A DNA stretch of 20,927 nucleotides. It comes from a virus. The DNA is taken from UHGV virus genome UHGV-0268707. The stretch is one strand, 5' to 3'. The translations under genes were made by a program, and so were the position numbers. Positions within the stretch are counted from its first letter, which is position 1; the number at the start of each line of letters is the position of its first letter. The notes under the pieces were generated by a model, which searched no databases, had not been told where the DNA came from, and worked only from the letters and a program-made list of their open reading frames with translations. Below, piece after piece: positions 1 to 16,894 of the stretch.

Positions 1-669
1 TACAACGAAGTTGCCCGTAAAAACGCAAAATCAACCCTGTCATCGGGTATTGGTCTGTATATGACGGGGGCAGATGGTGAAGGCGGGGCTGAGGTGTATT
101 CAGCCGCAACCACGCGTGATCAGGCCAGAATCGTGTTTGAAGACGCCAAAAATATGGTCAGAAAAGCCCGGTCGACACTCGGGCGGTTGTTTGACTTCAA
201 CAAGCTGGCGATTTACCAGGAGCAGAGCGCATCAAAATTTGAACCGCTTTCCTCGGATGCAAACAACCTGGACGGTCTGAACATCCACTGCGCCATTATT
301 GATGAGCTGCATGCACATAAAACCCGTGACGTGTGGGACGTTCTGGAAACGGCAACCGGTGCCCGTCTGCAGTCCCTTTTATTTGGTATCACCACGGCAG
401 GGTTTAACAAGGAAGGGATTTGTTACGAGCAGCGTGATTACGCCATCAAGGTATTGCGTGGCTATAACAGCGACGTGGAGGGCGCTGTAAAAGACGACTC
501 TTACTTTGCGATCATTTACACCCTCGATGAGGGAGATGATCCGTTTGATGAAACGGTCTGGCAGAAAGCGAATCCTGGCCTGGGCATCTGTAAACGCTGG
601 GATGATCTGCGTCGTCTGGCGAAAAAAGCGAAGGAGCAGGTCTCTGCGCGGGTGAATTTTTTTACCAAG
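1..669 (+). pseudogene. terL: Prophage terminase large subunit, N-terminal portion (5' partial at window edge; reading frame interrupted by insertion of the element at about 662-669)
   Basis: Frame 1 is open from base 1. Its translation (YNEVARKNAKST...TTRDQARIVFEDAKNM...LFGITTAG...WQKANPGL...ARVNFFTK) aligns colinearly with the intact terminase at 13978..15639 (FIEVPRKNAKST...AVSRDQARIVFDDARQM...LFAITTSG...WIKANPNI...WVEMLTK). Similarity stops at codons FFTK (661..669); downstream the frame runs into AT-rich non-homologous sequence. Confidence 0.8.
659..669. repeat. Putative attL core (tTtTTACCAAg)
   Basis: Sequence TTTTTACCAAG at the exact point where terminase homology ends; it matches ttCTTACCAAa at the right junction, with 7 bp identical (TTACCAA). 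Confidence 0.45.
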
Positions 670-797
670 AAAGTAACATCACGCCGTAACAACAGTGCGA
701 TCTGTCCTGATTTTTTTAGTAACCAAATGAAAGAAAAAGATTTTTTCTTGTTCGTCGTTTTTGTTTTTTCTGGAAGGTTCTGGCTGTTTTCATCATT

Positions 798-821
798 TGT
801 GTATTGCACTGTGTATTGCAA
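798..821. repeat. Tandem 12-bp repeats TGTGTATTGCAC/TGTGTATTGCAA, candidate integrase arm-type or RDF binding sites (left end)
   Basis: Two adjacent copies directly upstream of the int start codon. The same motif recurs at 16061..16084 just inside the right end. Confidence 0.45.
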
Positions 822-839
822 AAACGGGTTATAAATCAC

Positions 840-2063
840 ATGGCGCTAAACAAACTGAGCGATAAAAAACTTCGTTCCCTGCTTGGGCGCAGGAGTGAGA
901 GGCAGGAAACCATCGCTGATGGTAACGGGCTTTCGGTACGGGTCAGTAAATACGGATGTGTTAGTTTTGTTTTCTTTTACAGACTGGCGGGAAGGGGGAC
1001 CGCGCCCATCTGGCTGACACTTGGAAAATATCCTGATCTGAGTCTCAAATCAGCGAGAGAGATGCGCGATCAGTGTCGAACCTGGCTTGCGGAGGGCAGA
1101 GATCCACGGATTCAGATAAAAATTGAACGGGAAGCCACCTTGCAACCTGTTACCGTTCGTGAGGCACTTGAATACTGGCTTGATAATTATGCAATGGATA
1201 AGCGTAGGGGAGCAGAACATATCAGGCAGTGCTTTGGTAAACATATTTATCCGGTGATTGGTCATGTACCACTTAGTGATTGCTCTATATCTATGTGGAT
1301 CAAGTGTTTTGACAAAATAAAAAAAGTAGCACCTGTACAGGCCGGAGCTTTGTTGCGTATATCAAAACAGGCGCTTAAATTTTGTAGGGTAAGAAAATAC
1401 GCGATTAGTCATGAAATTGATGATCTTGAGGTCTGTGATGTGGGAAAAAAGTCTGCGCGAAGAAGCAGGGTTTTAACAGATGATGAAATCAGAGATTTAT
1501 GGCGAAGTATTAATACTGATTATGACAATCACGAATTATCATATGAAAACCGAATTATTTTACGTTTCCTGGTAGTTTTTGGTTGCCGACTGTCAGAAGT
1601 ATTACTGTCGTCCTGGGGAGAGTGGGATTTTGATAAGAAATTATGGCGCGTTCCCGCTGAACATAGCAAAAATGGCAGGGAAATAATCAGACCGATTCCT
1701 GATGGCATGTTTAACTGGTTAGTTACGTTAAAAAAAATAACAGGTAACAAAGAAAATGTGATTGGGTTTGATATGCGTCAGTGTACGGCAAGCGTAACTA
1801 TCGGTAAGACATGGAAAAGGATGAAACACTCGGAGAAATGGACGGCGCATGATATGCGAAGAGTGTTTGCCACAAAACTAAGTGATCATGGTTTTGAACA
1901 TAATGTGGTTGAACAGTTGCTTGGGCACACATTAGGCGGTGTTGCCGGGGTTTATAACAGAAGCCAGTATATGGACAGAAAAAAAGAAGCTATGAACTGG
2001 TGGTACGACTACCTGAATAAGCTAATTAGTGGTGACGGTAATGATTCAAATAGTTACGCGTGA
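840..2063 (+). CDS. int: Tyrosine-type site-specific integrase (P4-like, N-terminal arm-binding domain)
   Basis: Translation starts MALNKLSDKKLRSL...GNGLSVRVSKYG (typical P4-family arm-binding N-terminus). C-terminal catalytic signatures: R in FGCRLSEVL, HDMRRVFATKL (H-x-x-R), and LLGHTLGGVAGVYNRSQY (catalytic Tyr). The ORF-track start at 804 overlaps the arm repeats, so the ATG at 840 is preferred. Confidence 0.9.
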   Translation: MALNKLSDKKLRSLLGRRSERQETIADGNGLSVRVSKYGCVSFVFFYRLAGRGTAPIWLTLGKYPDLSLKSAREMRDQCRTWLAEGRDPRIQIKIEREATLQPVTVREALEYWLDNYAMDKRRGAEHIRQCFGKHIYPVIGHVPLSDCSISMWIKCFDKIKKVAPVQAGALLRISKQALKFCRVRKYAISHEIDDLEVCDVGKKSARRSRVLTDDEIRDLWRSINTDYDNHELSYENRIILRFLVVFGCRLSEVLLSSWGEWDFDKKLWRVPAEHSKNGREIIRPIPDGMFNWLVTLKKITGNKENVIGFDMRQCTASVTIGKTWKRMKHSEKWTAHDMRRVFATKLSDHGFEHNVVEQLLGHTLGGVAGVYNRSQYMDRKKEAMNWWYDYLNKLISGDGNDSNSYA

Positions 2064-2262
2064 AGAACTTGAAAATGATAAAACAATCGACAGGATGATT
2101 AAGGAAGATGAATGTGCATGGTTAACTGCTCTTGGCAGGAGACACAGATCGTTACTTGAAAAGGAAGGAAAATTTCCACGAAAAATATGTATTGGCCCAC
2201 AAACAAAAGTCTGGCGCTTATCTGAGGTGCTGGAATGGGTAAAGGGTGAATGGAAAACCTGA
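2041..2262 (+). CDS. AlpA-family (excisionase-like) HTH regulator
   Basis: Small ORF overlapping the int 3' end; motif ECAWLTALGRRHRSLLEKEGKFPRKICIGPQTKVWRLSEVLEWV fits the AlpA/Xis HTH pattern (HTH followed by FP...W...EV..W). Start codon uncertain (GTG 2029 or ATG 2041). Confidence 0.55.
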   Translation: MIQIVTREELENDKTIDRMIKEDECAWLTALGRRHRSLLEKEGKFPRKICIGPQTKVWRLSEVLEWVKGEWKT

Positions 2263-2285
2263 GCTAAAGTAAATGAGATATAATC

Positions 2286-2311
2286 AACCCGTCTTTTGGC
2301 GGGTTTTTTTA
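2286..2311 (+). terminator. Candidate rho-independent terminator
   Basis: AACCCG-tcttttgg-CGGGTT followed by TTTTT. Confidence 0.35.
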
Positions 2312-2325
2312 TAGGTGATATTTTT

Positions 2326-2604
2326 ATGCAAAAATTTATTTATCCTACACCCGAAGAACGCATTCAGATTCTGAAAGAGCATGGCGAACCGTATGATCGC
2401 CGTATACGCGAACATGAGTGTGCCAATCGTACCGGGCTTTCAAGAAGCAGACGTTGGGTACTTGAACAGGAGGGAGCATTTCCTGCTCGTGCTCATTTAG
2501 GGAAAGTGTCTGTTTCCTGGTTGCTCTCTGATGTGCTCTGGTGGGTTATGCATCCGCCAGGAGTAAAGGAAGTAAACAGCCCATACAAAAACGCCAATAA
2601 GTAA
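2326..2604 (+). CDS. AlpA-family HTH transcriptional regulator
   Basis: ANRTGLSRSRRWVLEQEGAFPARAHLGKVSVSWLLSDVLWWV matches the AlpA family signature. ATG at 2326 is preferred over the upstream TTG. Confidence 0.6.
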   Translation: MQKFIYPTPEERIQILKEHGEPYDRRIREHECANRTGLSRSRRWVLEQEGAFPARAHLGKVSVSWLLSDVLWWVMHPPGVKEVNSPYKNANK

Positions 2605-2613
2605 TTACCGACA

Positions 2614-2643
2614 ACCCCGCACCACGCAATGCGGGGTTTTTTG
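2614..2643 (+). terminator. Rho-independent terminator
   Basis: CCCCGCA-ccacgcaa-TGCGGGG stem-loop followed by TTTTTT, directly after the stop at 2604. Confidence 0.6.
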
Positions 2644-2661
2644 TATGTGAGGTAGAAAGCG

Positions 2662-3243
2662 ATGAATAAAAATATTGCCGTGACGGGCAAGGGTGACGCA
2701 CGTCATGTGAAAAAATTCTGTGATATTCGTGATCTGGTCGTTCTGCGCTTTGATGGTGTGAACGTTCGCGTGGTGTATCTGAACGGCGATCCGTGGTTTG
2801 TTGCAAAGGATGTTTGTGCGGCGCTTGAATTATCCAATTCACGCATGGCGTTGCAAGCTCTGGATGATGATGAAAGTAATACCGTAACTTTAACTTACGG
2901 TATTCGCGGAAATCCAAATCATAGCGTCGTTTCTGAATCTGGTTTTTACAAGCTGATTGCCAGAAGTCGCAAAGCTGCTACTCCTAGCACGTTCGCCCAT
3001 CGTTTCAGTAACTGGGTATTCAGAAATGTGATACCGGGTATCAGAAAAACGGGGGCTTATGGTATCCCGTGGGGCGCATTACAGGATTTTTCCCGCCGCA
3101 AAGAGCAATACCAGATAAGTGCCAGCGAGAAGGGGAGGGAGCTACAGGCATGTAAGCGCAAAAAGCGTGAGCTGGAGGAAGAAGAAAAAAGGCTGATACG
3201 TGAATACCAGCCTGAGTTTTACTTTGGTGAGCGTATTCAGTAA
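2662..3243 (+). CDS. Bro-N domain protein (antirepressor-like)
   Basis: N-terminal roughly 130 aa carry Bro-N hallmarks: LRFDGVNVRVVYLNGDPWFVAKDVCAALELSN...LDDDE...SESGFYKLIARSRKAATPSTFAHRFSNWVFRNVIPGIRKTGAY. C-terminus is charged and coiled. Confidence 0.8.
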   Translation: MNKNIAVTGKGDARHVKKFCDIRDLVVLRFDGVNVRVVYLNGDPWFVAKDVCAALELSNSRMALQALDDDESNTVTLTYGIRGNPNHSVVSESGFYKLIARSRKAATPSTFAHRFSNWVFRNVIPGIRKTGAYGIPWGALQDFSRRKEQYQISASEKGRELQACKRKKRELEEEEKRLIREYQPEFYFGERIQ

Positions 3244-3523
3244 CCACACGCGGTGTTGATTATACGGTACATCGTGTTGACCGGGAAGCTACCCACCAGC
3301 AAGGCAAAATCTTCTGCTAAAAAATGACATATGGCCAGTCGTCCGGAAAGCATGAAATTTTACAAAAATGGAAAATGAAGATTTTTATTGTGCTGGTGGG
3401 TAAAAACAAAAAGCGCCCCGTTGCCGGAGCGCCCTTGCGAACAATTAACCTACTGCGCAAAAAATGAATCTGTGCGGGGGGATTATATCAACCGTGGTCG
3501 AAATGACCATAGTTGCAGGATAA

Positions 3524-3556
3524 CAGGCAAAACAAAGGCCACCCGCTACGGTGGCC
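3524..3556 (-). terminator. Candidate rho-independent terminator for the leftward regulator transcripts
   Basis: GGCCACC-cgctac-GGTGGCC hairpin (3537..3556); on the minus strand it is followed by TTTGTTTTGCC. Confidence 0.35.
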
Positions 3557-3659
3557 CCTCGACACAAGCTACACGTTATCCCCAACGCATGAGCATAACC
3601 AACAATGCCACATTTACGGCTGGTGGGCAATGTGATCAGTGTGCTGGCTTGCTGGTGGG

Positions 3660-3857
3660 CTATTCCTGCTCTTTAGCATCGCCATGCTGCGATGTTTTCC
3701 AGGTATGCGATCCCATTTTTGTGCGCTTGTACTCTTTAAGGAACCTCTCAAGGACAAACGCACATGGCGCGAATCTTTCCTGTTCATGTTCGCTTACCGC
3801 GTTTTTGCGTTGTTTTTTCCTAGATGAAGATAATTTCTTTAATGATTTGTCAGTCAT
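3660..3857 (-). CDS. Small basic hypothetical protein (possible paralog of the adjacent regulator)
   Basis: 65-aa lysine-rich ORF whose last four codons (KEQE-stop) and about 12 nt of DNA are shared with the gene at 3915..4094. Weak RBS; function unknown. Confidence 0.35.
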   Translation of the reverse strand: MTDKSLKKLSSSRKKQRKNAVSEHEQERFAPCAFVLERFLKEYKRTKMGSHTWKTSQHGDAKEQE

Positions 3858-3914
3858 CGTAGATACCTGTAACCCAGTTCACCGCAGTTCACCGCACCAC
3901 GGCGCTGGTGACGG

Positions 3915-4094
3915 TTACTCCTGCTCTTTGGCCTTCCGGCGCTGGCGGCGTTTGATCTCACCTTCAAGCGCCGAAACGATAAATTGCCCAGTGCTTTCGC
4001 CTTCTTCCTTTAAATTTTCTACAGCGTCAGCTATTGCATGGGGTACTCGTGCCTCAAGTTTTTTGGATTTTCCATTAACTGCTTTCGTTGCCAT
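3915..4094 (-). CDS. Small ribbon-helix-helix-like DNA-binding protein, candidate repressor of the element
   Basis: 59 aa, MATKAVNGKSKKLEARVPHAIADAVENLKEEGESTGQFIVSALEGEI, consistent with a beta-strand plus two helices (RHH/Arc-like). AAGGA RBS 8 nt upstream of the ATG at 4094; reads away from the operator-containing promoter region. Confidence 0.5.
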   Translation of the reverse strand: MATKAVNGKSKKLEARVPHAIADAVENLKEEGESTGQFIVSALEGEIKRRQRRKAKEQE

Positions 4095-4115
4095 ATCTGA
4101 TTTCCTTGTTATTAG

Positions 4116-4195
4116 GTGGCTGACAGTATACACACAAGAAAATAGAAAAACACTATTGACGTGGCTGACACCTGTTACTAGTATAGTGGCTGACA
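4116..4195. repeat. Three direct copies of GTGGCTGACA (operator-like)
   Basis: Copies at 4116..4125, 4161..4170 and 4186..4195; the second and third extend to GTGGCTGACACCT and bracket the -35/-10 of the rightward promoter. Confidence 0.5.
4156..4184 (+). promoter_or_regulatory. Sigma70-like rightward promoter (TTGACG, 17 nt spacer, TAGTAT) overlapped by operator repeats
   Basis: TTGACG at 4156..4161 and TAGTAT at 4179..4184 with a 17-nt spacer; sits upstream of the small-ORF/primase operon. Confidence 0.45.
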
Positions 4196-4293
4196 CCTTT
4201 ATTGAGGTAATCGATGAAAAGACAAAGCCCGCAGGTGCTACCAACACCAACGGGCTTCTAACCACCAACGATAGCGAAAGTATCGAGGTAGCT

Positions 4294-4497
4294 ATGTTAA
4301 ATCATACCACACACCCGCAAGGGCGGGACTCGCACAACCTGAATAAATACATCTGGCGTTTTATCGCTCTGAGCACGGCACAACCGCGCGTGATTACCAT
4401 TGAGGCCACCAGCGAACAGGAAGCCCGCCAGCAATCCCCGGCTGGCTGCGTGATGATATTCGCCGCCCGTATTCTCCAGGAGGTGCGCCATGATTAA
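4294..4497 (+). CDS. Hypothetical protein (first gene of rightward operon)
   Basis: GAGGT RBS 5-9 nt upstream of ATG 4294; stop overlaps the next start. The 369-aa ORF-track call 3388..4497 in the same frame is rejected. Confidence 0.45.
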   Translation: MLNHTTHPQGRDSHNLNKYIWRFIALSTAQPRVITIEATSEQEARQQSPAGCVMIFAARILQEVRHD

Positions 4498-4705
4498 CCT
4501 GTCACTTACCGACCTTAACCGCATTCAGTTTCGTGAGAAATTCACCGGGCAGTTGCTGGTCAATGTGGATAAAGGTCGCGTGGTGTGTAATTACCACCTG
4601 CCAGATGAAGCCATTGTCGCAACAAGGGAATCATTACAGGAACTCGCAGAACGTGCCGGAATGATTAACGCGAATATTCAGGGGGGGGTGAGACATGTGC
4701 AATAA
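4490..4705 (+). CDS. Hypothetical protein
   Basis: AGGAGG RBS upstream of ATG 4490; start overlaps the preceding stop and its stop overlaps the next start. Confidence 0.55.
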   Translation: MINLSLTDLNRIQFREKFTGQLLVNVDKGRVVCNYHLPDEAIVATRESLQELAERAGMINANIQGGVRHVQ

Positions 4706-4940
4706 CATCCGTCCGGACGCAGCTGCCGAAGCTATCAGAACGCTGATGCACGCGCTGATTGATATTTCATGCACGGTAGCAACCGCAGAAAAACACATTA
4801 CCAGAGAGACGGAATATACAGGGGCGATAATCCCGCATTCGCTGGCTTACGCACAGCTTACCGCTGATATGGCGCTGAATGAGGCTAAAGCCATCCTGAT
4901 TGCTGATTGTGAAAATGGCGGGGGCGATTATGCGAAATAA
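4695..4940 (+). CDS. Hypothetical protein
   Basis: ATG 4695 preceded by a G-rich RBS; overlaps neighbours on both sides. Confidence 0.5.
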   Translation: MCNNIRPDAAAEAIRTLMHALIDISCTVATAEKHITRETEYTGAIIPHSLAYAQLTADMALNEAKAILIADCENGGGDYAK

Positions 4941-5148
4941 ACATGATATTGAAGACCTGGCATTTGAAGCCCTGCACTCTGCGAAAAAAATCAGGGAAGT
5001 CGTCAATATGTGGATGAACAGCCTTAGCACCGATAAATCCGATAGCAGAGAAGAAATTCTTATTTCTTTGTTGTTAGACCTGGCAAATACACAGGTTTCT
5101 CTGACATCTGATATTGAGCTCGCCGCTAAAAAGCTGCCTCTGGAGTAA
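4927..5148 (+). CDS. Hypothetical protein
   Basis: ORF in the operon; start ambiguous (TTG 4900, ATG 4912 or ATG 4927). Confidence 0.45.
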   Translation: MMRNKHDIEDLAFEALHSAKKIREVVNMWMNSLSTDKSDSREEILISLLLDLANTQVSLTSDIELAAKKLPLE

Positions 5149-5154
5149 AAAAAC

Positions 5155-5469
5155 ATGAAAAAGAAAAATTCTGGCTTTACTGCCAGCGGCCTTCCTCGGC
5201 CTGAAATCCGCCCCGGCGATATTTTCCGGGATAAATACGGCAGCACGATAACGATTAAAACCGTCGATGATTTTCGTGTGACCTATATCCGCGAAGGTTA
5301 TGCGCATCCCTGCGTGTCGTCGCATATGCGCTTTGAAAGGGAATTCACCCTGGTAAGCAAAGCACCACCAGCGGACTTAAGCGACATCGACAGAATCATG
5401 CGCGTTACAGGTATGGAACGCATTAAGGCAGTACGTGAAATTATTCGTGAACGGGGAAAGGCAAAATGA
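5155..5469 (+). CDS. Hypothetical protein
   Basis: 104-aa ORF; its stop overlaps the primase start (ATGA). Confidence 0.55.
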   Translation: MKKKNSGFTASGLPRPEIRPGDIFRDKYGSTITIKTVDDFRVTYIREGYAHPCVSSHMRFEREFTLVSKAPPADLSDIDRIMRVTGMERIKAVREIIRERGKAK

Positions 5470-7586
5470 AACTGGCGCCGAACGTAAAACTGTTACCGAA
5501 AGATAAAGGCGAGGATGCAGTGATTTTTGCGGGGGATGACGCATACAGCCACGCAGAGCATTACATGCAGGGCGGAGAAGCCAGAAAGCGCGGCGACAAA
5601 ATACCACCTGTTTATCTCGGACGGCGTGACCTGGGTAATCTGGAAAACCTGCGTATTGTGGATGATGGTCGGTCACGCGCCATCGTCAGACGTGCCGGAA
5701 AACTGGATGACAAACTGGCGCTACAGATTGAAACCCTGCTGGCAGTGGCTGGTGTTAAGGAAGCCTGTTTTTGTGACGAGAACGGCGATTTACTGGAGGA
5801 CTGGACACCACAGCTTGCCCGACTGAAAGACGAATACGAGCGCGGGGAAAGTCTGGTGTTGCCCTTAAAGAAAAAAATCACAGAAAGCCAGGGCGATGAT
5901 GAATTAAAGCCCCGCGTTGAAAGCCGCGCCGATGGTGTTTTCTGGGTAACGCCAAAAGTGGACAAGCAGTCAGGCGAAATTATCCGGCCTGAGACGTGGT
6001 TATGTTCTCCGCTTGAACTACTGGGAACGGGGACGATCGGTAAAGAGCATTACCGCGTGATGCGCTGGAAAAAGCCAGCAAACCATGAAGTCATCACAAT
6101 GGCGATCCCATGTGGTGGCATTGGCGACCGTGACGGCTGGCGGTTGCTGAAAGACCACGGCCTGAACGTGACAACCAACGGCAAATACAGGGCTATCCTG
6201 GCTGACTGGATGCAGTTAAGCGGAAACCATGAGGAATGGCAGTTAAGCACAACAACGGGCTGGCATTTTGGCGCGTACATCATGCCGGACGGTTCGGTCA
6301 TTGGTGATTGCGAAAAGCCAGTCCTGTTTACCGGAAAAACGGCTGCTGTTAATGGTTATTCCGTGGCAGGAACGGCGGAGGGCTGGCGCGATACCGTTGC
6401 GCGGCTGGCTGGTGGTAATCCGTCCATGATGCTGGGTGTGGCGGTATCGTTATCTGCACCATTAATCGGGCTGGTGGGCGCTGACGGCTTCGGGGTACAT
6501 CTTTTCGAACAGTCATCGGCAGGTAAGACCACAACGCAGAACATCGCATCAAGTTTATGGGGAGAGCCGGACGCGCAGCGGCTGACCTGGTACGGCACAG
6601 CGTTAGGTATCGCCAACGAAGCAGAGGCACACAATGACGGGCTTTTACCCCTGGATGAAATAGGCCAGGCCGGAAACGCGCGGGAGGTGTCCACGTCAGC
6701 CTATACGCTGTTTAACGGTTCCGGGAAATTACAGGGGGCAAAGGACGGCGGCAACAGGGAGATAAAACACTGGCGAACGGTGGCAATCAGTACCGGAGAA
6801 ATGGACGTTGAAACATTCCTCAAAACGGAGGGGATAAAAGTCAAGGCGGGGCAGCTTGTCCGTCTGCTTAACGTGCCGATGGAAAAAGCCACGCAGTTTC
6901 ACGAATACAGCACCGGAAAGGCACACGCAGACGCGTTAAAGGATGCCTGGACAGAAAATCACGGGGCGGCGGGGCGTGAGTGGGTTAAATGGCTGGCAGA
7001 CCACCAGCAGGAGGCAAAGGATACGGTAAGGGCATGCCGTGAGCGGTGGCGCAACCTGATACCGGAGAGCTACGGCGAACAGGTTCACCGTGTGGGGGAA
7101 CGATTTGCCATGCTTGAGGCGGCGTTAGTGTTGTCCGGTCATATTACTGGCTGGGATGAGCAGGAATGCCGCGATGCCATACAGCATAATTTTAATGCCT
7201 GGGTGAAGGAGTTCGGCACGGGTAACAGGGAATTTAAACAGATGGTTGAACAGGCAGAAGCTTTTTTAGCGTCGTTCGGATTCAGCAGATACCTTCCGTG
7301 GCCCAATACCGACGAGCGTGATTTACCGATTAAAGAACTTGCCGGATACAGAAAGGGGAGTATCAGAAACGAAGATGACGAGTTCCGTTTTTACACGTTC
7401 CCGCATGTATTTGAGGGTGAGATAGCACAGGGATTTAATCCGTCTCACTTTGCCCGCGCGTTGAGTGCTGCCGGAATGCTGGAAGCGGGTAACGATCGCC
7501 GTTACAAGAAAAAGGCGCTCGGCAAAATTGGGGGGAAGCAGCATGTTTTTTACGTGCTGATGTTCCAGCCTGAGGCAGAAGATTAA
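5466..7586 (+). CDS. Replication initiation primase/helicase-like protein (DUF927-type P-loop NTPase)
   Basis: 706 aa. Central region TTTGWHFGAYIMPDGSVIG...GVHLFEQSSAGKTTTQNIASSLWGEP carries a Walker A-like GKT motif, and GLLPLDEIGQ a Walker B-like hhhhDE. Matches remembered DUF927 primase-helicase proteins of P4-like/PICI elements. Followed immediately by iterons. Confidence 0.75.
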   Translation: MKLAPNVKLLPKDKGEDAVIFAGDDAYSHAEHYMQGGEARKRGDKIPPVYLGRRDLGNLENLRIVDDGRSRAIVRRAGKLDDKLALQIETLLAVAGVKEACFCDENGDLLEDWTPQLARLKDEYERGESLVLPLKKKITESQGDDELKPRVESRADGVFWVTPKVDKQSGEIIRPETWLCSPLELLGTGTIGKEHYRVMRWKKPANHEVITMAIPCGGIGDRDGWRLLKDHGLNVTTNGKYRAILADWMQLSGNHEEWQLSTTTGWHFGAYIMPDGSVIGDCEKPVLFTGKTAAVNGYSVAGTAEGWRDTVARLAGGNPSMMLGVAVSLSAPLIGLVGADGFGVHLFEQSSAGKTTTQNIASSLWGEPDAQRLTWYGTALGIANEAEAHNDGLLPLDEIGQAGNAREVSTSAYTLFNGSGKLQGAKDGGNREIKHWRTVAISTGEMDVETFLKTEGIKVKAGQLVRLLNVPMEKATQFHEYSTGKAHADALKDAWTENHGAAGREWVKWLADHQQEAKDTVRACRERWRNLIPESYGEQVHRVGERFAMLEAALVLSGHITGWDEQECRDAIQHNFNAWVKEFGTGNREFKQMVEQAEAFLASFGFSRYLPWPNTDERDLPIKELAGYRKGSIRNEDDEFRFYTFPHVFEGEIAQGFNPSHFARALSAAGMLEAGNDRRYKKKALGKIGGKQHVFYVLMFQPEAED

Positions 7587-7607
7587 CCCCCTGTGTGAGG
7601 TGAAAAG

Positions 7608-7732
7608 TTGCGGGTTATGCGGGTTATCCTGTGTATAAGTGCATTAACTGTATGAATAAAAAGGAAATCAATAACCCGCACGTAACCCGCAAAACGGCAG
7701 TTATAACCCGCAAAAGTGCGATTATAACCCGC
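7608..7732. repeat. Iteron cluster 1 (putative origin): 2 inverted and 4 direct copies of TAACCCGCA flanking an AT-rich stretch
   Basis: GCGGGTTAT x2 at 7610..7627, AT-rich 7630..7670, then (A/G)TAACCCGCA at 7671, 7682, 7703 and 7723 (spacings 11, 21, 20 bp), immediately downstream of the primase gene. Confidence 0.6.
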
Positions 7733-7796
7733 AGAATTTCACAGTAAGGGTTTAAACAAGCGTAACTATCAACGTTAAAACCGGAGAGCAGAAAGC

Positions 7797-15720: not shown

Positions 15721-15874
15721 GCGGGTTATTTGAGTGGTGTTTGCGGGTTATTTTGAATGTCTTGCGGGTTACATTCTGGCTGATATTTAGATACGTTGTT
15801 TTTTAACGTATTGATATTAAAGAGTAAAAAATACTTAGCACGCGAAGATAACCCGCTAACCCGCATAACCCGCA
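15721..15874. repeat. Iteron cluster 2: 3 inverted copies (GCGGGTTAT/C), an AT-rich spacer and 3 tandem direct copies of TAACCCGC(A), followed by a (TA)6 tract
   Basis: GCGGGTTAT at 15721 and 15743, GCGGGTTAC at 15764 (spacing 21-22 bp); AT-rich 15781..15840; ATAACCCGC-TAACCCGC-ATAACCCGC at 15848..15873; TATATATATATA at about 15884..15895. Same motif as cluster 1. Confidence 0.6.
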
Positions 15875-16049
15875 CTGTTTTGTATATATATATACGAAAA
15901 ATTGCATTCAGGGGGGGATCGAAATTTCTACTGCCTCTTATCTCTTTGAGTGCTCACCTCGTCAGATTGTTACACACAAGAAATAAAAAATGCTTCGCGA
16001 TGGTAGGTCGAATCACTGTATCAAAAAACGGTGTGTATCAGCATTAAAA

Positions 16050-16084
16050 CAATACAGATACGTGTATTGCGCTGTGTATTGCTC
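16050..16084. repeat. TGTATTG-containing repeats near the right end (one inverted copy plus two tandem 12-mers CGTGTATTGCGC/TGTGTATTGCTC)
   Basis: Near-identical to the tandem repeats at 798..821; the palindrome CAATACA-gatacg-TGTATTG lies at 16050..16069. Confidence 0.45.
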
Positions 16085-16153
16085 GATGATTTATAAAGAC
16101 TGTTTTTTCATGTTAAATGATTGATATACAGGTGATTTTAAAAAACTTGAAAT

Positions 16154-16894
16154 ATTCTTACCAAACACATGAATGTGTGGGTAACAGCAGAGTCTGCCTG
16201 GATGGACATGATTAAGTGGGAGAAATGCGAATATATTGCCCCACGACATGAGCTGAAAACGTATCCCATGTGGGTCGGCGTCGACCTTGCTCATAAGATT
16301 GATATCTGTGCGGCGGCAAAACTCTGGCGAACCGATAACGGACATGTTCATGCTGATTTTAAATTCTGGCTCCCGGAAGGACGGCTGGAGCGGTGCTCGC
16401 GGCAGCAGGCAGAACTTTACCGGAAATGGGCGGAGATGGATAAGCTCATCCTGACGGATGGTGATGTTATCGATCATGCTCAGATAAAAAGTGACTTACT
16501 GGAATGGATTGGTGGTGAAAACCTCAGGGAACTGGGATTTGACCCGTGGAGTGCAATGCAGTTCAGTCTGGCGCTGGCTGAAGAAGGTATACCGCTGGTG
16601 GAAGTTCCGCAGACGGTCCGCAATCTGTCAGAGGCCATGAAGGAAACGGAATCACTGGTCTATGCCGGACGTTTCCATCACAGTAATCACCCGGTCATGA
16701 ACTGGATGATGTCTAACGTTACGGTAAAACCGGACAAAAACGACAATATCTTCCCGAATAAATCCACGCCTGAAGCCAAAATCGACGGCCCTGTTGCGAT
16801 GTTTACAGCAATGAGCCGGATGCTGGTCAATGGCGGTGAACCGGAGCCGGATCTGTCTGAACACCTGATCAGTGTTGGTATCCGCTCGCTTTAA
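16154..16894 (+). pseudogene. terL: Prophage terminase large subunit, C-terminal portion (continuation of the gene interrupted at 669)
   Basis: Translation from 16154 (ILTKHMNVWVTAESAW...GVDLAHKIDICAAAKLW...NIFPNKSTPEAKIDGPVAMFTAM) aligns with the C-terminal half of the intact terL at 13978..15639 (MLTKRFNIWCQGATPW...GLDLSSTSDISSVCYAF...NIKPNKKKSSNKIDPSVAALMAF). The join with 1..669 is in frame (VNFFTK then HMNVW). Confidence 0.8.
16155..16165. repeat. Putative attR core (ttCTTACCAAa)
   Basis: TTCTTACCAAA at the point where terminase homology resumes; shares TTACCAA with the left junction. Confidence 0.45.

What the first reader, a model, noticed from the sequence alone, without database searches (positions are those of the whole stretch)
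7608..7732. Iteron array immediately downstream of the primase/helicase gene: probable replication origin
Seen directly: two inverted copies of GCGGGTTAT (7610..7627), an AT-rich stretch, then four direct copies of TAACCCGCA with 11, 21 and 20 bp spacing (about one and two helical turns). Iterons plus an AT-rich unwinding region right after the initiator gene is the standard origin layout for P4-like and PICI replicons.
Basis: partly seen in the sequence, partly recalled or inferred. Interest (0 to 1): 0.55.

Follow-up and report, generated by a model that had tools for sequence, protein, structure and literature searches.

The report
Half of a split satellite origin
The repeats after the helicase gene are real binding sites for a phage satellite's own replication protein, but they are only half of its replication origin: the other half lies 8 kb away at the far end of the element.

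Summary
TAACCCGC occurs 12 times in the window against 0.57 expected. Six copies lie at 7609-7733: two packed inverted copies, a 44-nt spacer of 70% A+T, then four direct copies spaced 11, 21 and 21 (not 20). The window is a 15.5-kb capsid-forming PICI-type satellite inserted in a prophage terL gene. The array follows its DUF927 initiator-helicase.

The iterons track the initiator. Four unrelated Rep types carry four different iterons. Within the DUF927 type, a Klebsiella homologue and a natural swap of the last ~100 residues keep the 9 | 11, 21, 21 geometry but change the iteron.

It is incomplete. In the canonical relatives sampled the origin is two adjacent arrays. Here the second array sits at 15720-15874, near attR. 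It is a mirror image with an IHF-consensus site and a (TA)6 run, and lies beside a phiP27-type cos-like sequence. All 13 sampled elements with only the proximal array carry a distal array with matching iterons. Phage P4's ori/crr pair is the closest analogue.

PICIs with unrelated Reps also carry the distal TAACCCGC array, with intact iterons, which is unexplained. No function has been tested experimentally.

The parts
5466..7586 (+). rep: the DUF927 initiator-helicase (706 aa). The iteron-specificity region is inferred to lie in about the last 100 residues.
   Evidence: Pfam DUF927, E=1e-45. PDB 8tch 'Pathogenicity island protein', E=3.7e-15, and 5dgk (Cch helicase), E=0.003. The C-terminal domain (aa 631-701) gives a weak Pfam HTH_56 'Cch HTH' match, E=7e-4, below the curated cutoff. 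A natural swap of this domain goes with a different iteron.
7609..7627 (-). Array 1, packed iterons: two copies of ATAACCCGCA on the minus strand, 9 nt apart.
   Evidence: The same packed pair, with the allele's own iteron, is present in every Rep allele examined.
7628..7670 (.). Array 1 A+T-rich spacer (about 70% A+T). It holds a DnaA-box consensus match, TTATACACA, at 7630-7638 on the minus strand.
   Evidence: The DnaA-box match is conserved in L001 and L006 and has one mismatch in L002. DnaA-box matches are not enriched in the window overall, so this may be chance.
7671..7733 (+). Array 1, four direct iterons at 7671, 7682, 7703 and 7724 (spacing 11, 21, 21).
   Evidence: The same 11/21/21 spacing, with TGAACCAAC, GGGACAAG or GGGACRAC iterons, occurs in L111, L114/L118 and L117.
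7797..8222 (+). ssb, the first gene after array 1.
   Evidence: Pfam SSB. Homology of the ssb module to other elements begins at 7764, and the Rep-plus-array-1 homology block ends at 7734/7735.
15720..15772 (-). Array 2, three spaced iterons at 15720, 15742 and 15763 (spacing 22, 21).
15773..15847 (.). Array 2 A+T-rich spacer (about 70% A+T). It holds an IHF-consensus match at 15804-15816.
   Evidence: The window has only two IHF-consensus matches; the other is at 16114-16126, near attR. The site is conserved in the 22 distinct right-end arrays aligned.
15848..15874 (+). Array 2, three packed iterons (8 and 9 nt apart).
15875..15905 (.). CTGTTTTG(TA)6CGAAAAATTGC (77% A+T), a candidate DNA-unwinding element that always follows array 2.
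   Evidence: It follows array 2 wherever array 2 lies, whether adjacent or distal, and in all iteron flavours.
15935..16000 (+). A phiP27-type cos-like sequence beside array 2.
   Evidence: The equivalent stretch of L005 is 100% identical over 37 nt to the annotated cos region of phage phiP27.
13560..13615 (+). A second cos-like sequence in the HNH-TerS gap, the position cos has in phiP27.
   Evidence: Read directly from the sequence: CCGACCGCCTCCTCAAATTTTTGTGCACGGGAATTTTT against phiP27 GGGACCGCCCGCCCCGTCAAATTTTTACACCCGCGAAATT. It was not aligned formally.
667..673 (.). attL core (TTACCAA), the left end of the 15,492-bp satellite inside a prophage terL gene.
   Evidence: L002 annotates the interrupted terL halves on either side.
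16159..16165 (.). attR core (TTACCAA).

Best explanation
The array at 7609-7733 is the Rep-proximal half of the vegetative replication origin of a 15.5-kb capsid-forming PICI-type satellite embedded in a prophage terL gene.

Proposed mechanism:
1. After induction and excision, the satellite's DUF927 initiator-helicase recognises the TAACCCGC iterons. Specificity maps to roughly its last 100 residues, probably a winged-helix or HTH domain.
2. Rep assembles on the oppositely oriented iteron sets on either side of an A+T-rich spacer and melts the DNA.
3. Rep loads itself as the replicative helicase, as shown for SaPI Rep proteins.

In this Rep family the full origin has two such arrays. In this element the second one (15720-15874, with an IHF-consensus site and a (TA)6 run) is 8.1 kb away on one arc of the circular form and 7.4 kb on the other. 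It is bound by the same Rep. I infer that the two arrays act together in cis, as phage P4's ori and crr do. The distal array is the more likely site of strand opening.

Shown here: the anatomy, the enrichment, the homology of Rep, the change of iterons with Rep type and with its C-terminal end at both arrays, and the complementary distribution of the arrays.

Inferred: binding, melting, the requirement in cis, and which half fires.
For: 1. Position and layout match the published PICI origin (PMC6092414, PMC9371898).

2. Rep is homologous to a solved staphylococcal pathogenicity-island protein and to the MCM-like Cch helicase.

3. Four unrelated Rep alleles carry four different iterons in the same place. 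The approach validates itself on one of them: the allele whose C-terminus matches the P4 alpha origin-binding domain (PDB 1ka8, E=1e-24) is followed by TGTTCACC. P4's own record annotates its type 1 repeats, which are this sequence to my knowledge.

4. Within the DUF927 type:
- A Klebsiella Rep 66% identical overall has the same 9 | 11, 21, 21 geometry in both arrays, with TGAACCAAC. Among the C-terminal 550 residues, the last ~100 are the most diverged.
- An E. coli Rep with a nearly identical sequence just upstream of the swap point, but a swapped last ~100 residues (45% identity), has GGGACAAG in the proximal array and also in a distal array at its right end.

5. The homology block holding the Rep C-terminal two-thirds plus array 1 ends at 7734/7735, right after the last iteron.

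6. Distribution:
- All 13 elements with only the proximal array and a visible right end carry a distal array with matching iterons. They span four integration sites, three kinds of cargo and two iteron flavours.
- Elements with both arrays adjacent carry no matching distal array.

7. Neither array contains a sigma-70 promoter, a terminator or an Rfam match.
Against: - Nothing here shows binding, melting or replication.
- The AlphaFold model of the C-terminal domain was unusable (pLDDT 42). Its Pfam HTH match is below the curated cutoff, and only 3 of 17 homologues give it.
- By the SaPI rule (at least two iterons on each side of the A+T-rich region, pointing in opposite directions), each array could be a complete origin on its own. 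The requirement in cis is therefore inferred from distribution only.
- The 13 elements are not phylogenetically independent. The GGGACAAG flavour is a single lineage, at the tRNA-Pro site.
- A compact variant (L050, L056, L066) has one hybrid array, so two separate arrays are not strictly required.
- The distal TAACCCGC array also occurs, with intact iterons, in elements whose Rep cannot be expected to bind it (L003, L004, L005, L085, L090, L117). This model does not explain that.
Confidence: 0.7

Rival explanations
1. Array 1 is a complete, self-sufficient origin. The distal array is an independent second origin or a dispensable relic that travels with the neighbouring cos module.
For: - Each array has at least two iterons on each side of an A+T-rich spacer in opposite orientation, which is the minimum stated for SaPI origins.
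- The distal array plus cos behaves as a portable module. It is found in elements with unrelated Rep proteins.
- A single hybrid array suffices in L056-type elements.
Against: - 13 of 13 proximal-only elements keep a distal array with matching iterons, across different cargo, integration sites and two iteron flavours.
- Non-matching distal arrays are seen only where a complete adjacent origin is present (6 of 6).
- Array 1 lacks the IHF-consensus site and the (TA)n run. All canonical, compact and distal versions retain these somewhere in cis.
Confidence: 0.15
2. Array 1 is a copy-number control or Rep-titrating (handcuffing) locus, like incA downstream of repA in plasmid P1. The distal array is then the only true origin.
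For: - Array 1 lies directly downstream of rep, with iterons two helical turns apart (21 nt), as in the control loci of iteron plasmids (own knowledge of P1 and F).
- The IHF-consensus site and the best unwinding candidate are at the distal array.
Against: - Array 1 has the divergent two-set layout around an A+T-rich spacer that is typical of PICI origins, not a unidirectional control array.
- PICIs amplify massively after induction rather than keeping a low copy number (established knowledge of PICI biology).
- In the canonical relatives sampled both arrays form one continuous ~330-bp region after rep.
Confidence: 0.1
3. The repeats are operators for a transcription factor that controls the downstream ssb and late operon, or they are a transcriptional roadblock.
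For: The array lies between rep and ssb in a unidirectional operon. The element encodes AlpA and PerC regulators.
Against: - No promoter-like or terminator-like site lies in 7500-7850.
- The repeat sequence follows the C-terminal end of Rep, not the AlpA, PerC or integrase alleles.
- The same motif recurs in a non-promoter context beside cos.
Confidence: 0.03
4. The repeats are terminase (TerS) recognition sites of a packaging signal.
For: The distal array lies about 60-80 nt from a phiP27-type cos-like sequence. It contains an IHF-consensus site, as lambda cosB does.
Against: - Array 1 is not next to a cos site.
- In the O157 and 1EC213 elements the second array lies after rep, far from any cos.
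- L118 has a matching distal array but no annotated terminase gene.
- Iterons change with Rep while the cos-side flank stays the same.
Confidence: 0.02

Closest known systems
PICI / SaPI replication origins (SaPIbov1, SaPI1, EcCICFT073 pri-rep-ori)
   Same: - The array lies immediately 3' of the initiator gene.
- Short iterons form two oppositely oriented sets around an A+T-rich region.
- Each Rep allele has its own iteron.
- Rep is a self-loading helicase homologous to a solved staphylococcal island protein.
   Different: - In this Rep family the full origin is two such arrays (about 330 bp).
- In this element the second array lies 8 kb away beside a cos-like site. I found no description of that arrangement for PICIs in the papers searched.
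- The specific origin of the capsid-forming PICIs has not been tested, as far as I could find.
Phage P4 ori and crr (cis replication region)
   Same: - One initiator binds two clusters of the same iteron, kilobases apart on a small satellite genome.
- One cluster lies directly 3' of the initiator gene.
- One cluster lies close to attP.
- P4's record annotates crr at 4291-4590, right after the alpha gene, and ori at 9086-9809.
   Different: - The initiator families differ: DUF927 here, alpha primase-helicase in P4.
- The iterons differ: TAACCCGC here, against TGTTCACC in P4 (to my knowledge).
- In P4 the rep-proximal cluster is also the att-proximal one. Here the distal cluster is att-proximal.
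- That P4 needs both regions is experimental knowledge (own knowledge of Flensburg and Calendar 1987 and Ziegelin et al. 1993; not held in the library). Here it is inferred.
Iteron plasmids with a separate control array (P1 incC/incA, F, R6K)
   Same: - Iterons are about two helical turns apart.
- An IHF site lies within the origin.
- A second iteron cluster lies outside the core origin.
   Different: - The initiator is a helicase, not a RepA/pi-type winged-helix dimer.
- The iteron sets are divergent rather than unidirectional.
- The element amplifies on induction rather than keeping a fixed copy number.
Helper-embedded satellites (Tommasini, Mageeney and Williams, bioRxiv 10.1101/2022.07.18.500453)
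   Same: The element carrying the array is a PICI-like satellite integrated in, and co-oriented with, a prophage late gene (the terminase large subunit). That paper lists a site of this kind, A:Terminase_1:245.
   Different: That work places the origin downstream of pri, citing earlier work. The parts of it I read do not describe a distal array.

Membership tests
PICI-type origin (iterons 3' of rep) | Located immediately downstream of the replication initiator gene of a PICI | tested here: met
   The array starts 23 nt after the rep stop codon (7586). The element has int, an AlpA-family gene, BRO-N, DUF4222, rep, ssb and PerC, with all but one of its genes in one direction.
PICI-type origin (iterons 3' of rep) | Two sets of iterons in opposite orientation flanking an A+T-rich region, at least two on each side | tested here: met
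   Two copies on the minus strand, a 44-nt spacer of 70.5% A+T, and four copies on the plus strand.
PICI-type origin (iterons 3' of rep) | The iteron sequence is specific to the cognate Rep allele | tested here: met
   Four unrelated Rep types carry four iterons. Three further DUF927 variants carry TGAACCAAC, GGGACAAG and GGGACRAC in the same geometry.
PICI-type origin (iterons 3' of rep) | Rep is a self-loading helicase with a C-terminal winged-helix or HTH domain that binds the iterons | tested here: inconclusive
   The helicase core is homologous to 8tch and 5dgk. Specificity maps genetically to the last ~100 residues. The fold is not established: AlphaFold gave pLDDT 42, and the Pfam HTH_56 match scores 20.1 bits against a cutoff of 26.2.
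PICI-type origin (iterons 3' of rep) | The fragment supports Rep-dependent autonomous replication | not testable with these tools
   This was done for EcCICFT073, which may carry a different Rep allele, but not for this one.
P4 ori/crr system | Alpha-type primase-helicase whose C-terminal domain (PDB 1ka8) binds TGTTCACC | tested here: not met
   The window's Rep has no 1ka8 match, and TGTTCACC is absent from the window. A sister element, L003, does meet this feature.
P4 ori/crr system | Two separated clusters of the same iteron on one replicon | tested here: met
   Arrays lie at 7609-7733 and 15720-15874. P4's layout was read from its record.
P4 ori/crr system | Both clusters are required in cis for replication | not testable with these tools
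   The only support is distributional: 13 of 13 proximal-only elements have a matching distal array.
DnaA-dependent iteron plasmid origin | Conserved DnaA boxes next to the iterons | tested here: inconclusive
   One perfect TTATNCACA match lies at 7630-7638. Such matches are not enriched in the window (23 against 18 expected), and none is evident by eye in the Klebsiella array, which I did not scan.

The most novel reading that the evidence does not exclude
The distal array plus cos may be a portable cassette: half an origin joined to a packaging site.

It also sits at the right end of PICIs whose own Rep proteins are unrelated (P4 alpha-like, RepA-helicase, another primase family, and a DUF927 variant with a different iteron). 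These elements have complete origins of their own.

There, its six TAACCCGC iterons show 0 variable positions of 48, against 24 of 107 in the rest of the array. The sites therefore look maintained.

The most novel reading is that these elements keep a foreign half-origin so that a DUF927 Rep supplied in trans by another satellite can amplify them. That would be one satellite hitch-hiking on another satellite's replication.
Probability: 0.15. Interest if true: 0.7.

Novelty: new variant of a known kind. Interest (0 to 1): 0.45.

Why it matters

Three results go beyond that:

- **The origin is two-part and can be split.** In this widespread DUF927 Rep family the two halves can lie 2-10 kb apart and still keep matched iterons. 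If both halves are needed in cis, the capsid-forming PICIs and helper-embedded satellites replicate in a P4-like ori/crr manner. Anyone cloning "rep + ori" from such elements, or engineering PICIs as delivery vehicles, would need both pieces.
- **Specificity can be tested directly.** The natural swaps of the C-terminal end give an iteron-specificity code that experiments can address.
- **The orphan arrays raise a new question.** Distal arrays in elements with unrelated Reps suggest satellites may interact through replication, which has not been examined.

Tried and rejected
- **Scan of one genome per species** with TGCGGGTTATGCGGGTTA. It gave 42 hits, all in unrelated taxa and roughly at chance level, and none in enteric bacteria.
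- **Helper-phage origin mimicry.** The distal array is not found in the phage collection, apart from a 2-kb fragment recorded from O157. No E. coli phage there encodes this Rep. The early region of phiP27 has no TAACCCGC cluster. Rejected for the phages available.
- **A stand-alone protein with the Rep C-terminal domain** in the orphan-array elements. No tblastn hit.
- **AlphaFold model of Rep residues 575-706** with a 17-sequence alignment. pLDDT was 42, so no fold search was attempted.
- **Promoter, terminator and Rfam scans** of both arrays. Nothing found.
- **Integrase arm sites as an explanation.** Rejected, because the integrases and att sites differ among elements that share the iteron. 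A different doubled repeat, TGTGTATTGC, lies at both ends of the element.
- **IMG/VR scan with GGGACAAGAGCGGGACAAG**. It returned four contigs of 55-63 kb with a different repeat arrangement. These are not PICI-like and were not pursued.
- **Two more genomes of the GGGACAAG flavour**. They belong to the same tRNA-Pro lineage as L118 and one is degraded, so they are not independent replicates.
- **Supplements of PMC6092414** searched for the iteron sequence. The supplement text does not list this iteron. It may appear only in the figure.

Full report
**What is in the sequence**

The stop codon of a 706-aa ORF (5466-7586) is followed 23 nt later by the array. It has two packed copies of TGCGGGTTAT (7609-7627), a 44-nt spacer of 70.5% A+T, and four direct copies of (A/G)TAACCCGCA at 7671, 7682, 7703 and 7724. 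The spacings are 11, 21 and 21.

The 8-mer TAACCCGC occurs 12 times in the window against 0.57 expected, and no shuffle reaches 12. In 92.7 kb of E. coli chromosomal flanks it occurs 5 times. That gives an expectation of 0.0067 for a 125-nt stretch.

It has three copies on the minus strand spaced 22 and 21, a 77-nt spacer of 70% A+T, and three packed copies on the plus strand. CTGTTTTG(TA)6CGAAAAATTGC follows directly. It is the mirror image of array 1. In both arrays the TTAT/ATAA ends of the iterons face the spacer.

**Context**

- The window opens with the N-terminal part of a terminase large-subunit gene. That reading frame is broken at about 673.
- Next come an integrase, an AlpA-family gene, a BRO-N gene, a DUF4222 gene, the DUF927 protein, ssb and PerC.
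- An HK97-type capsid, protease and portal follow, then a connector, an HNH endonuclease, a P27-family TerS and a TerL (13978-15639).
- After array 2, at about 16159, the interrupted terminase gene resumes. The prophage's own portal, protease and capsid genes follow.
- A 98.6%-identical locus in E. coli EC416 is annotated in the same way, with the two terL halves flagged as incomplete.

The element is therefore a 15,492-bp capsid-forming PICI-type satellite with an att core of TTACCAA. It is embedded in a prophage late gene. This configuration has been described as a helper-embedded satellite, and sites in terminase are listed. The same kind of element in E. coli O157:H7, between roxA and phoQ, looks like the prototype capsid-forming PICI EcCIEDL933. 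I did not confirm that identity.

**What the protein is**

- Pfam finds only DUF927.
- The protein matches PDB 8tch ('Pathogenicity island protein', E=3.7e-15) and the MCM-like SCCmec helicase Cch, 5dgk.
- PHROGs names its family 'DNA primase'. No primase domain was detected, and the N-terminal 170 residues match nothing in Pfam.

I treat it as an initiator-helicase of the kind studied in SaPIs. Those Reps bind iterons through a C-terminal winged helix. They melt the A+T-rich centre without ATP and load themselves as helicases.

**Evidence that the array is the cognate origin**

[quoted passage not shown] The EcCICFT073 pri-rep-ori segment drives plasmid replication.

Across unrelated Rep types, the sequence after rep changes while the layout stays:

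| Rep type | Loci | Iteron after rep |
|---|---|---|
| DUF927 | window, L001, L002, L006 | TAACCCGC |
| 'Primase-like DNA-binding' | L003 | CTGTTCACC |
| RepA-helicase | L004 | AGTGGGGAG |
| Another primase family | L005 | CTGTCTACC |

The L003 case is an internal control. Its C-terminus matches the solved origin-binding domain of P4 alpha (1ka8, E=1e-24), and its iteron contains TGTTCACC. P4's own record annotates its type 1 repeats, which are this sequence to my knowledge.

Within the DUF927 type there are two sharper tests:

- **Klebsiella homologue.** It is 66% identical overall. It keeps the exact geometry (two packed copies 9 apart, then copies at 11, 21, 21), but every copy is TGAACCAAC. 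Among the C-terminal 550 residues, the last ~100 are the most diverged: 45-58% identity against 70-96% in the core.
- **Natural domain swap in E. coli.** This protein is nearly identical just upstream of the swap point, but its last ~100 residues are replaced (45% identity). It is followed by the same geometry built from GGGACAAG.

Iteron specificity therefore maps to the C-terminal end of Rep. The homology block shared with other DUF927 elements runs from inside rep to 7734/7735, one or two bases past the last iteron. The ssb module starts as a separate block at 7764. No promoter, terminator or Rfam family lies in the array.

**Why the array is only half of the origin**

In the O157 element and in strain 1EC213, array 1 is followed directly by a homologue of array 2. 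The two form one ~330-bp region after rep that is roughly palindromic. The order is: packed copies, spacer, spaced copies, then spaced copies, spacer, packed copies, then the (TA)n run. The Klebsiella element and STEC383 show the same double structure with their own iterons.

In the window, a ~430-bp block holding array 2 and a small gene is missing after array 1. Array 2 sits instead after terL, about 290 bp from attR.

Sixty-two IMG/VR loci and several complete genomes were typed by tblastn and motif position. They give this tally:

| Class | Loci | Finding |
|---|---|---|
| Both arrays adjacent after rep | L001, L006 and 13 IMG/VR loci (15 in all) | No matching distal array, where the right end is visible |
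| Proximal array only, right end visible (13 elements) | window, L002, L065, L068, L072, L074, L075, L088, L096, L103, L120, L121, L118 | All 13 carry a matching distal array |

The 13 use at least four integration sites: prophage terL, yifB, yicC and tRNA-Pro. Between the arrays they carry three kinds of cargo: a capsid-forming module, large uncharacterised genes, or almost nothing.

L118 matters most. It is the element with the swapped C-terminal end. Its distal array is also built from GGGACAAG-type copies, yet its flank is the same as in the window: TTTTG(TA)nCGAAAAATTGCATTCAGG followed by the cos-like sequence. The distal array thus follows the C-terminal end of Rep just as the proximal array does.

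A third class (L050, L056, L066) has a single hybrid array. It joins the packed pair of array 1 to an array-2-like spacer and a remnant of the (TA)n tail. Every version therefore keeps an IHF-like spacer and the A+T tail somewhere in cis. In the window both lie at the distal array. The IHF consensus occurs only twice in the window, at 15804-15816 and near attR.

**Mechanism proposed**

Rep binds both arrays through its C-terminal domain. This is inferred from the sequence changes described above, not shown. On the excised circle the arrays are 8,126 and 7,366 bp apart.

The closest known arrangement is phage P4. Its record annotates crr directly 3' of the alpha gene and ori 4.7 kb away, both built from the same type 1 repeats. 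That both are needed in cis is from my own knowledge of the P4 literature, which the library does not hold.

I think the distal array is the more likely site of opening, because it has the IHF-consensus site and the (TA)6 run. The proximal array would then be an auxiliary Rep-loading or enhancer site. That assignment is a guess.

Because each array satisfies the SaPI minimum on its own, two rivals stay open: two independent origins, or one origin plus a control array.

**The unexplained part**

The distal TAACCCGC array also lies at the right end of elements that have a different Rep and a complete origin of their own:

- L003, L085 and L090 (P4 alpha-like Rep)
- L004 (RepA-helicase)
- L005 (another primase family)
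- L117 (a DUF927 variant with GGGACRAC iterons)

In four of these elements (L003, L004, L005, L085) the 48 iteron positions are invariant, while 24 of the 107 other positions in the array vary (Fisher p=7e-5). The sites therefore look maintained. These elements encode no homologue of the DUF927 C-terminal domain. In three of these genomes the search found only one place with this array.

About 60-80 nt beyond the array lies a sequence homologous to the cos region of phage phiP27, with 100% identity over 37 nt in L005. So array 2 and cos travel together as a module. The window also has a second cos-like sequence in the HNH-TerS gap.

Three explanations remain open. The orphan arrays may be kept because modules recombine often. 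They may be used in trans by a Rep from another satellite. They may serve packaging.

The packaging reading fits poorly. L118 has a matching distal array but no terminase gene, and the array lies far from cos in the canonical elements.

**Verdict**

The origin interpretation is right, and the kind of origin is known. What is new is that this Rep family's origin has two parts and that this element carries them 8 kb apart, in a P4-like arrangement. The distal half is also part of a mobile origin-plus-cos module found in unrelated satellites. All functional statements await experiment.

Noticed in passing
window 61-673 and 16159-16894; element 674-16158: The whole 15.5-kb satellite sits inside, and co-oriented with, the terminase large-subunit gene of an HK97-like prophage. 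The att core is TTACCAA. The same integrase (99-100% identity) lies next to a terL fragment in L002, L054, L077, L083, L091 and L104. This 'helper-embedded satellite' configuration is already described (bioRxiv 10.1101/2022.07.18.500453).
   Followed up: partly
window 798-820 and 16062-16085: A doubled repeat, TGTGTATTGC, lies near both ends of the element, just inside attL and attR. These are probably integrase arm-type sites. They may be the 'doubled DNA sequence motif' mentioned for attP regions in the helper-embedded satellite preprint.
   Followed up: no
window 13560-13615 and 15935-16000: The window has two cos-like sequences of the phiP27 type. One is in the HNH-TerS gap, the position cos has in phiP27. 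The other is beside array 2 near attR. EcCICFT073 is also reported to have two cos sites (PMC6092414).
   Followed up: partly
L003 12082-12235; L004 and L005 12022-12175; L117 17487-17640: The TAACCCGC distal array plus cos is present at the right end of PICIs whose Rep is unrelated, or has a different iteron, and which have a complete origin of their own. The iteron positions are invariant (0 of 48) while 24 of 107 other positions vary.
   Followed up: partly
window 5466-5885 (Rep residues 1-140): The N-terminal ~140 residues of Rep are a separate module shared at 39-99% identity by four otherwise unrelated Rep types (DUF927, P4 alpha-like, RepA-helicase, another primase family). It shuffles independently of the rest of the protein and matches no Pfam family. 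The rep gene is always preceded by a DUF4222 gene, usually overlapping it by 4 nt. Identities of DUF4222 and the N-terminal module do not track each other.
   Followed up: partly
window 7630-7638: A perfect DnaA-box consensus match (TTATACACA, minus strand) abuts the packed iterons of array 1. It is conserved in the O157 and 1EC213 elements, and none is evident by eye in the Klebsiella array. It may be chance.
   Followed up: partly
window 8850-9356 (minus strand): This is the only sizeable reverse-oriented ORF in the element (168 aa). It matches no Pfam family, sits between the PerC gene and the capsid gene, and is absent at that position in the annotations of L001 to L003. It is a candidate accessory gene.
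   Followed up: no
L111 (PQ569648.1, 92639-106503): A 106.5-kb record deposited as 'Klebsiella phage P12620-1' carries a capsid-forming PICI-like block at one end: a DUF927 rep, a double iteron array, then three genes placed and sized like the window's capsid, protease and portal genes (all annotated hypothetical). The record may be a chimera or a composite of a phage and a satellite.
   Followed up: no
L122-L125 (IMG/VR contigs of 55-63 kb): GGGACAAG repeats in a different arrangement occur in four large viral contigs. This hints that a related DNA-binding specificity is also used by full-size phages.
   Followed up: no
L050, L056, L066 (for example L056 6001-6200): A compact hybrid origin. 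It joins the packed pair of array 1, an array-2-like IHF spacer, four iterons at exact 21-nt spacing and a degenerate (TA)n tail. No second array is present anywhere on the contig.
   Followed up: partly
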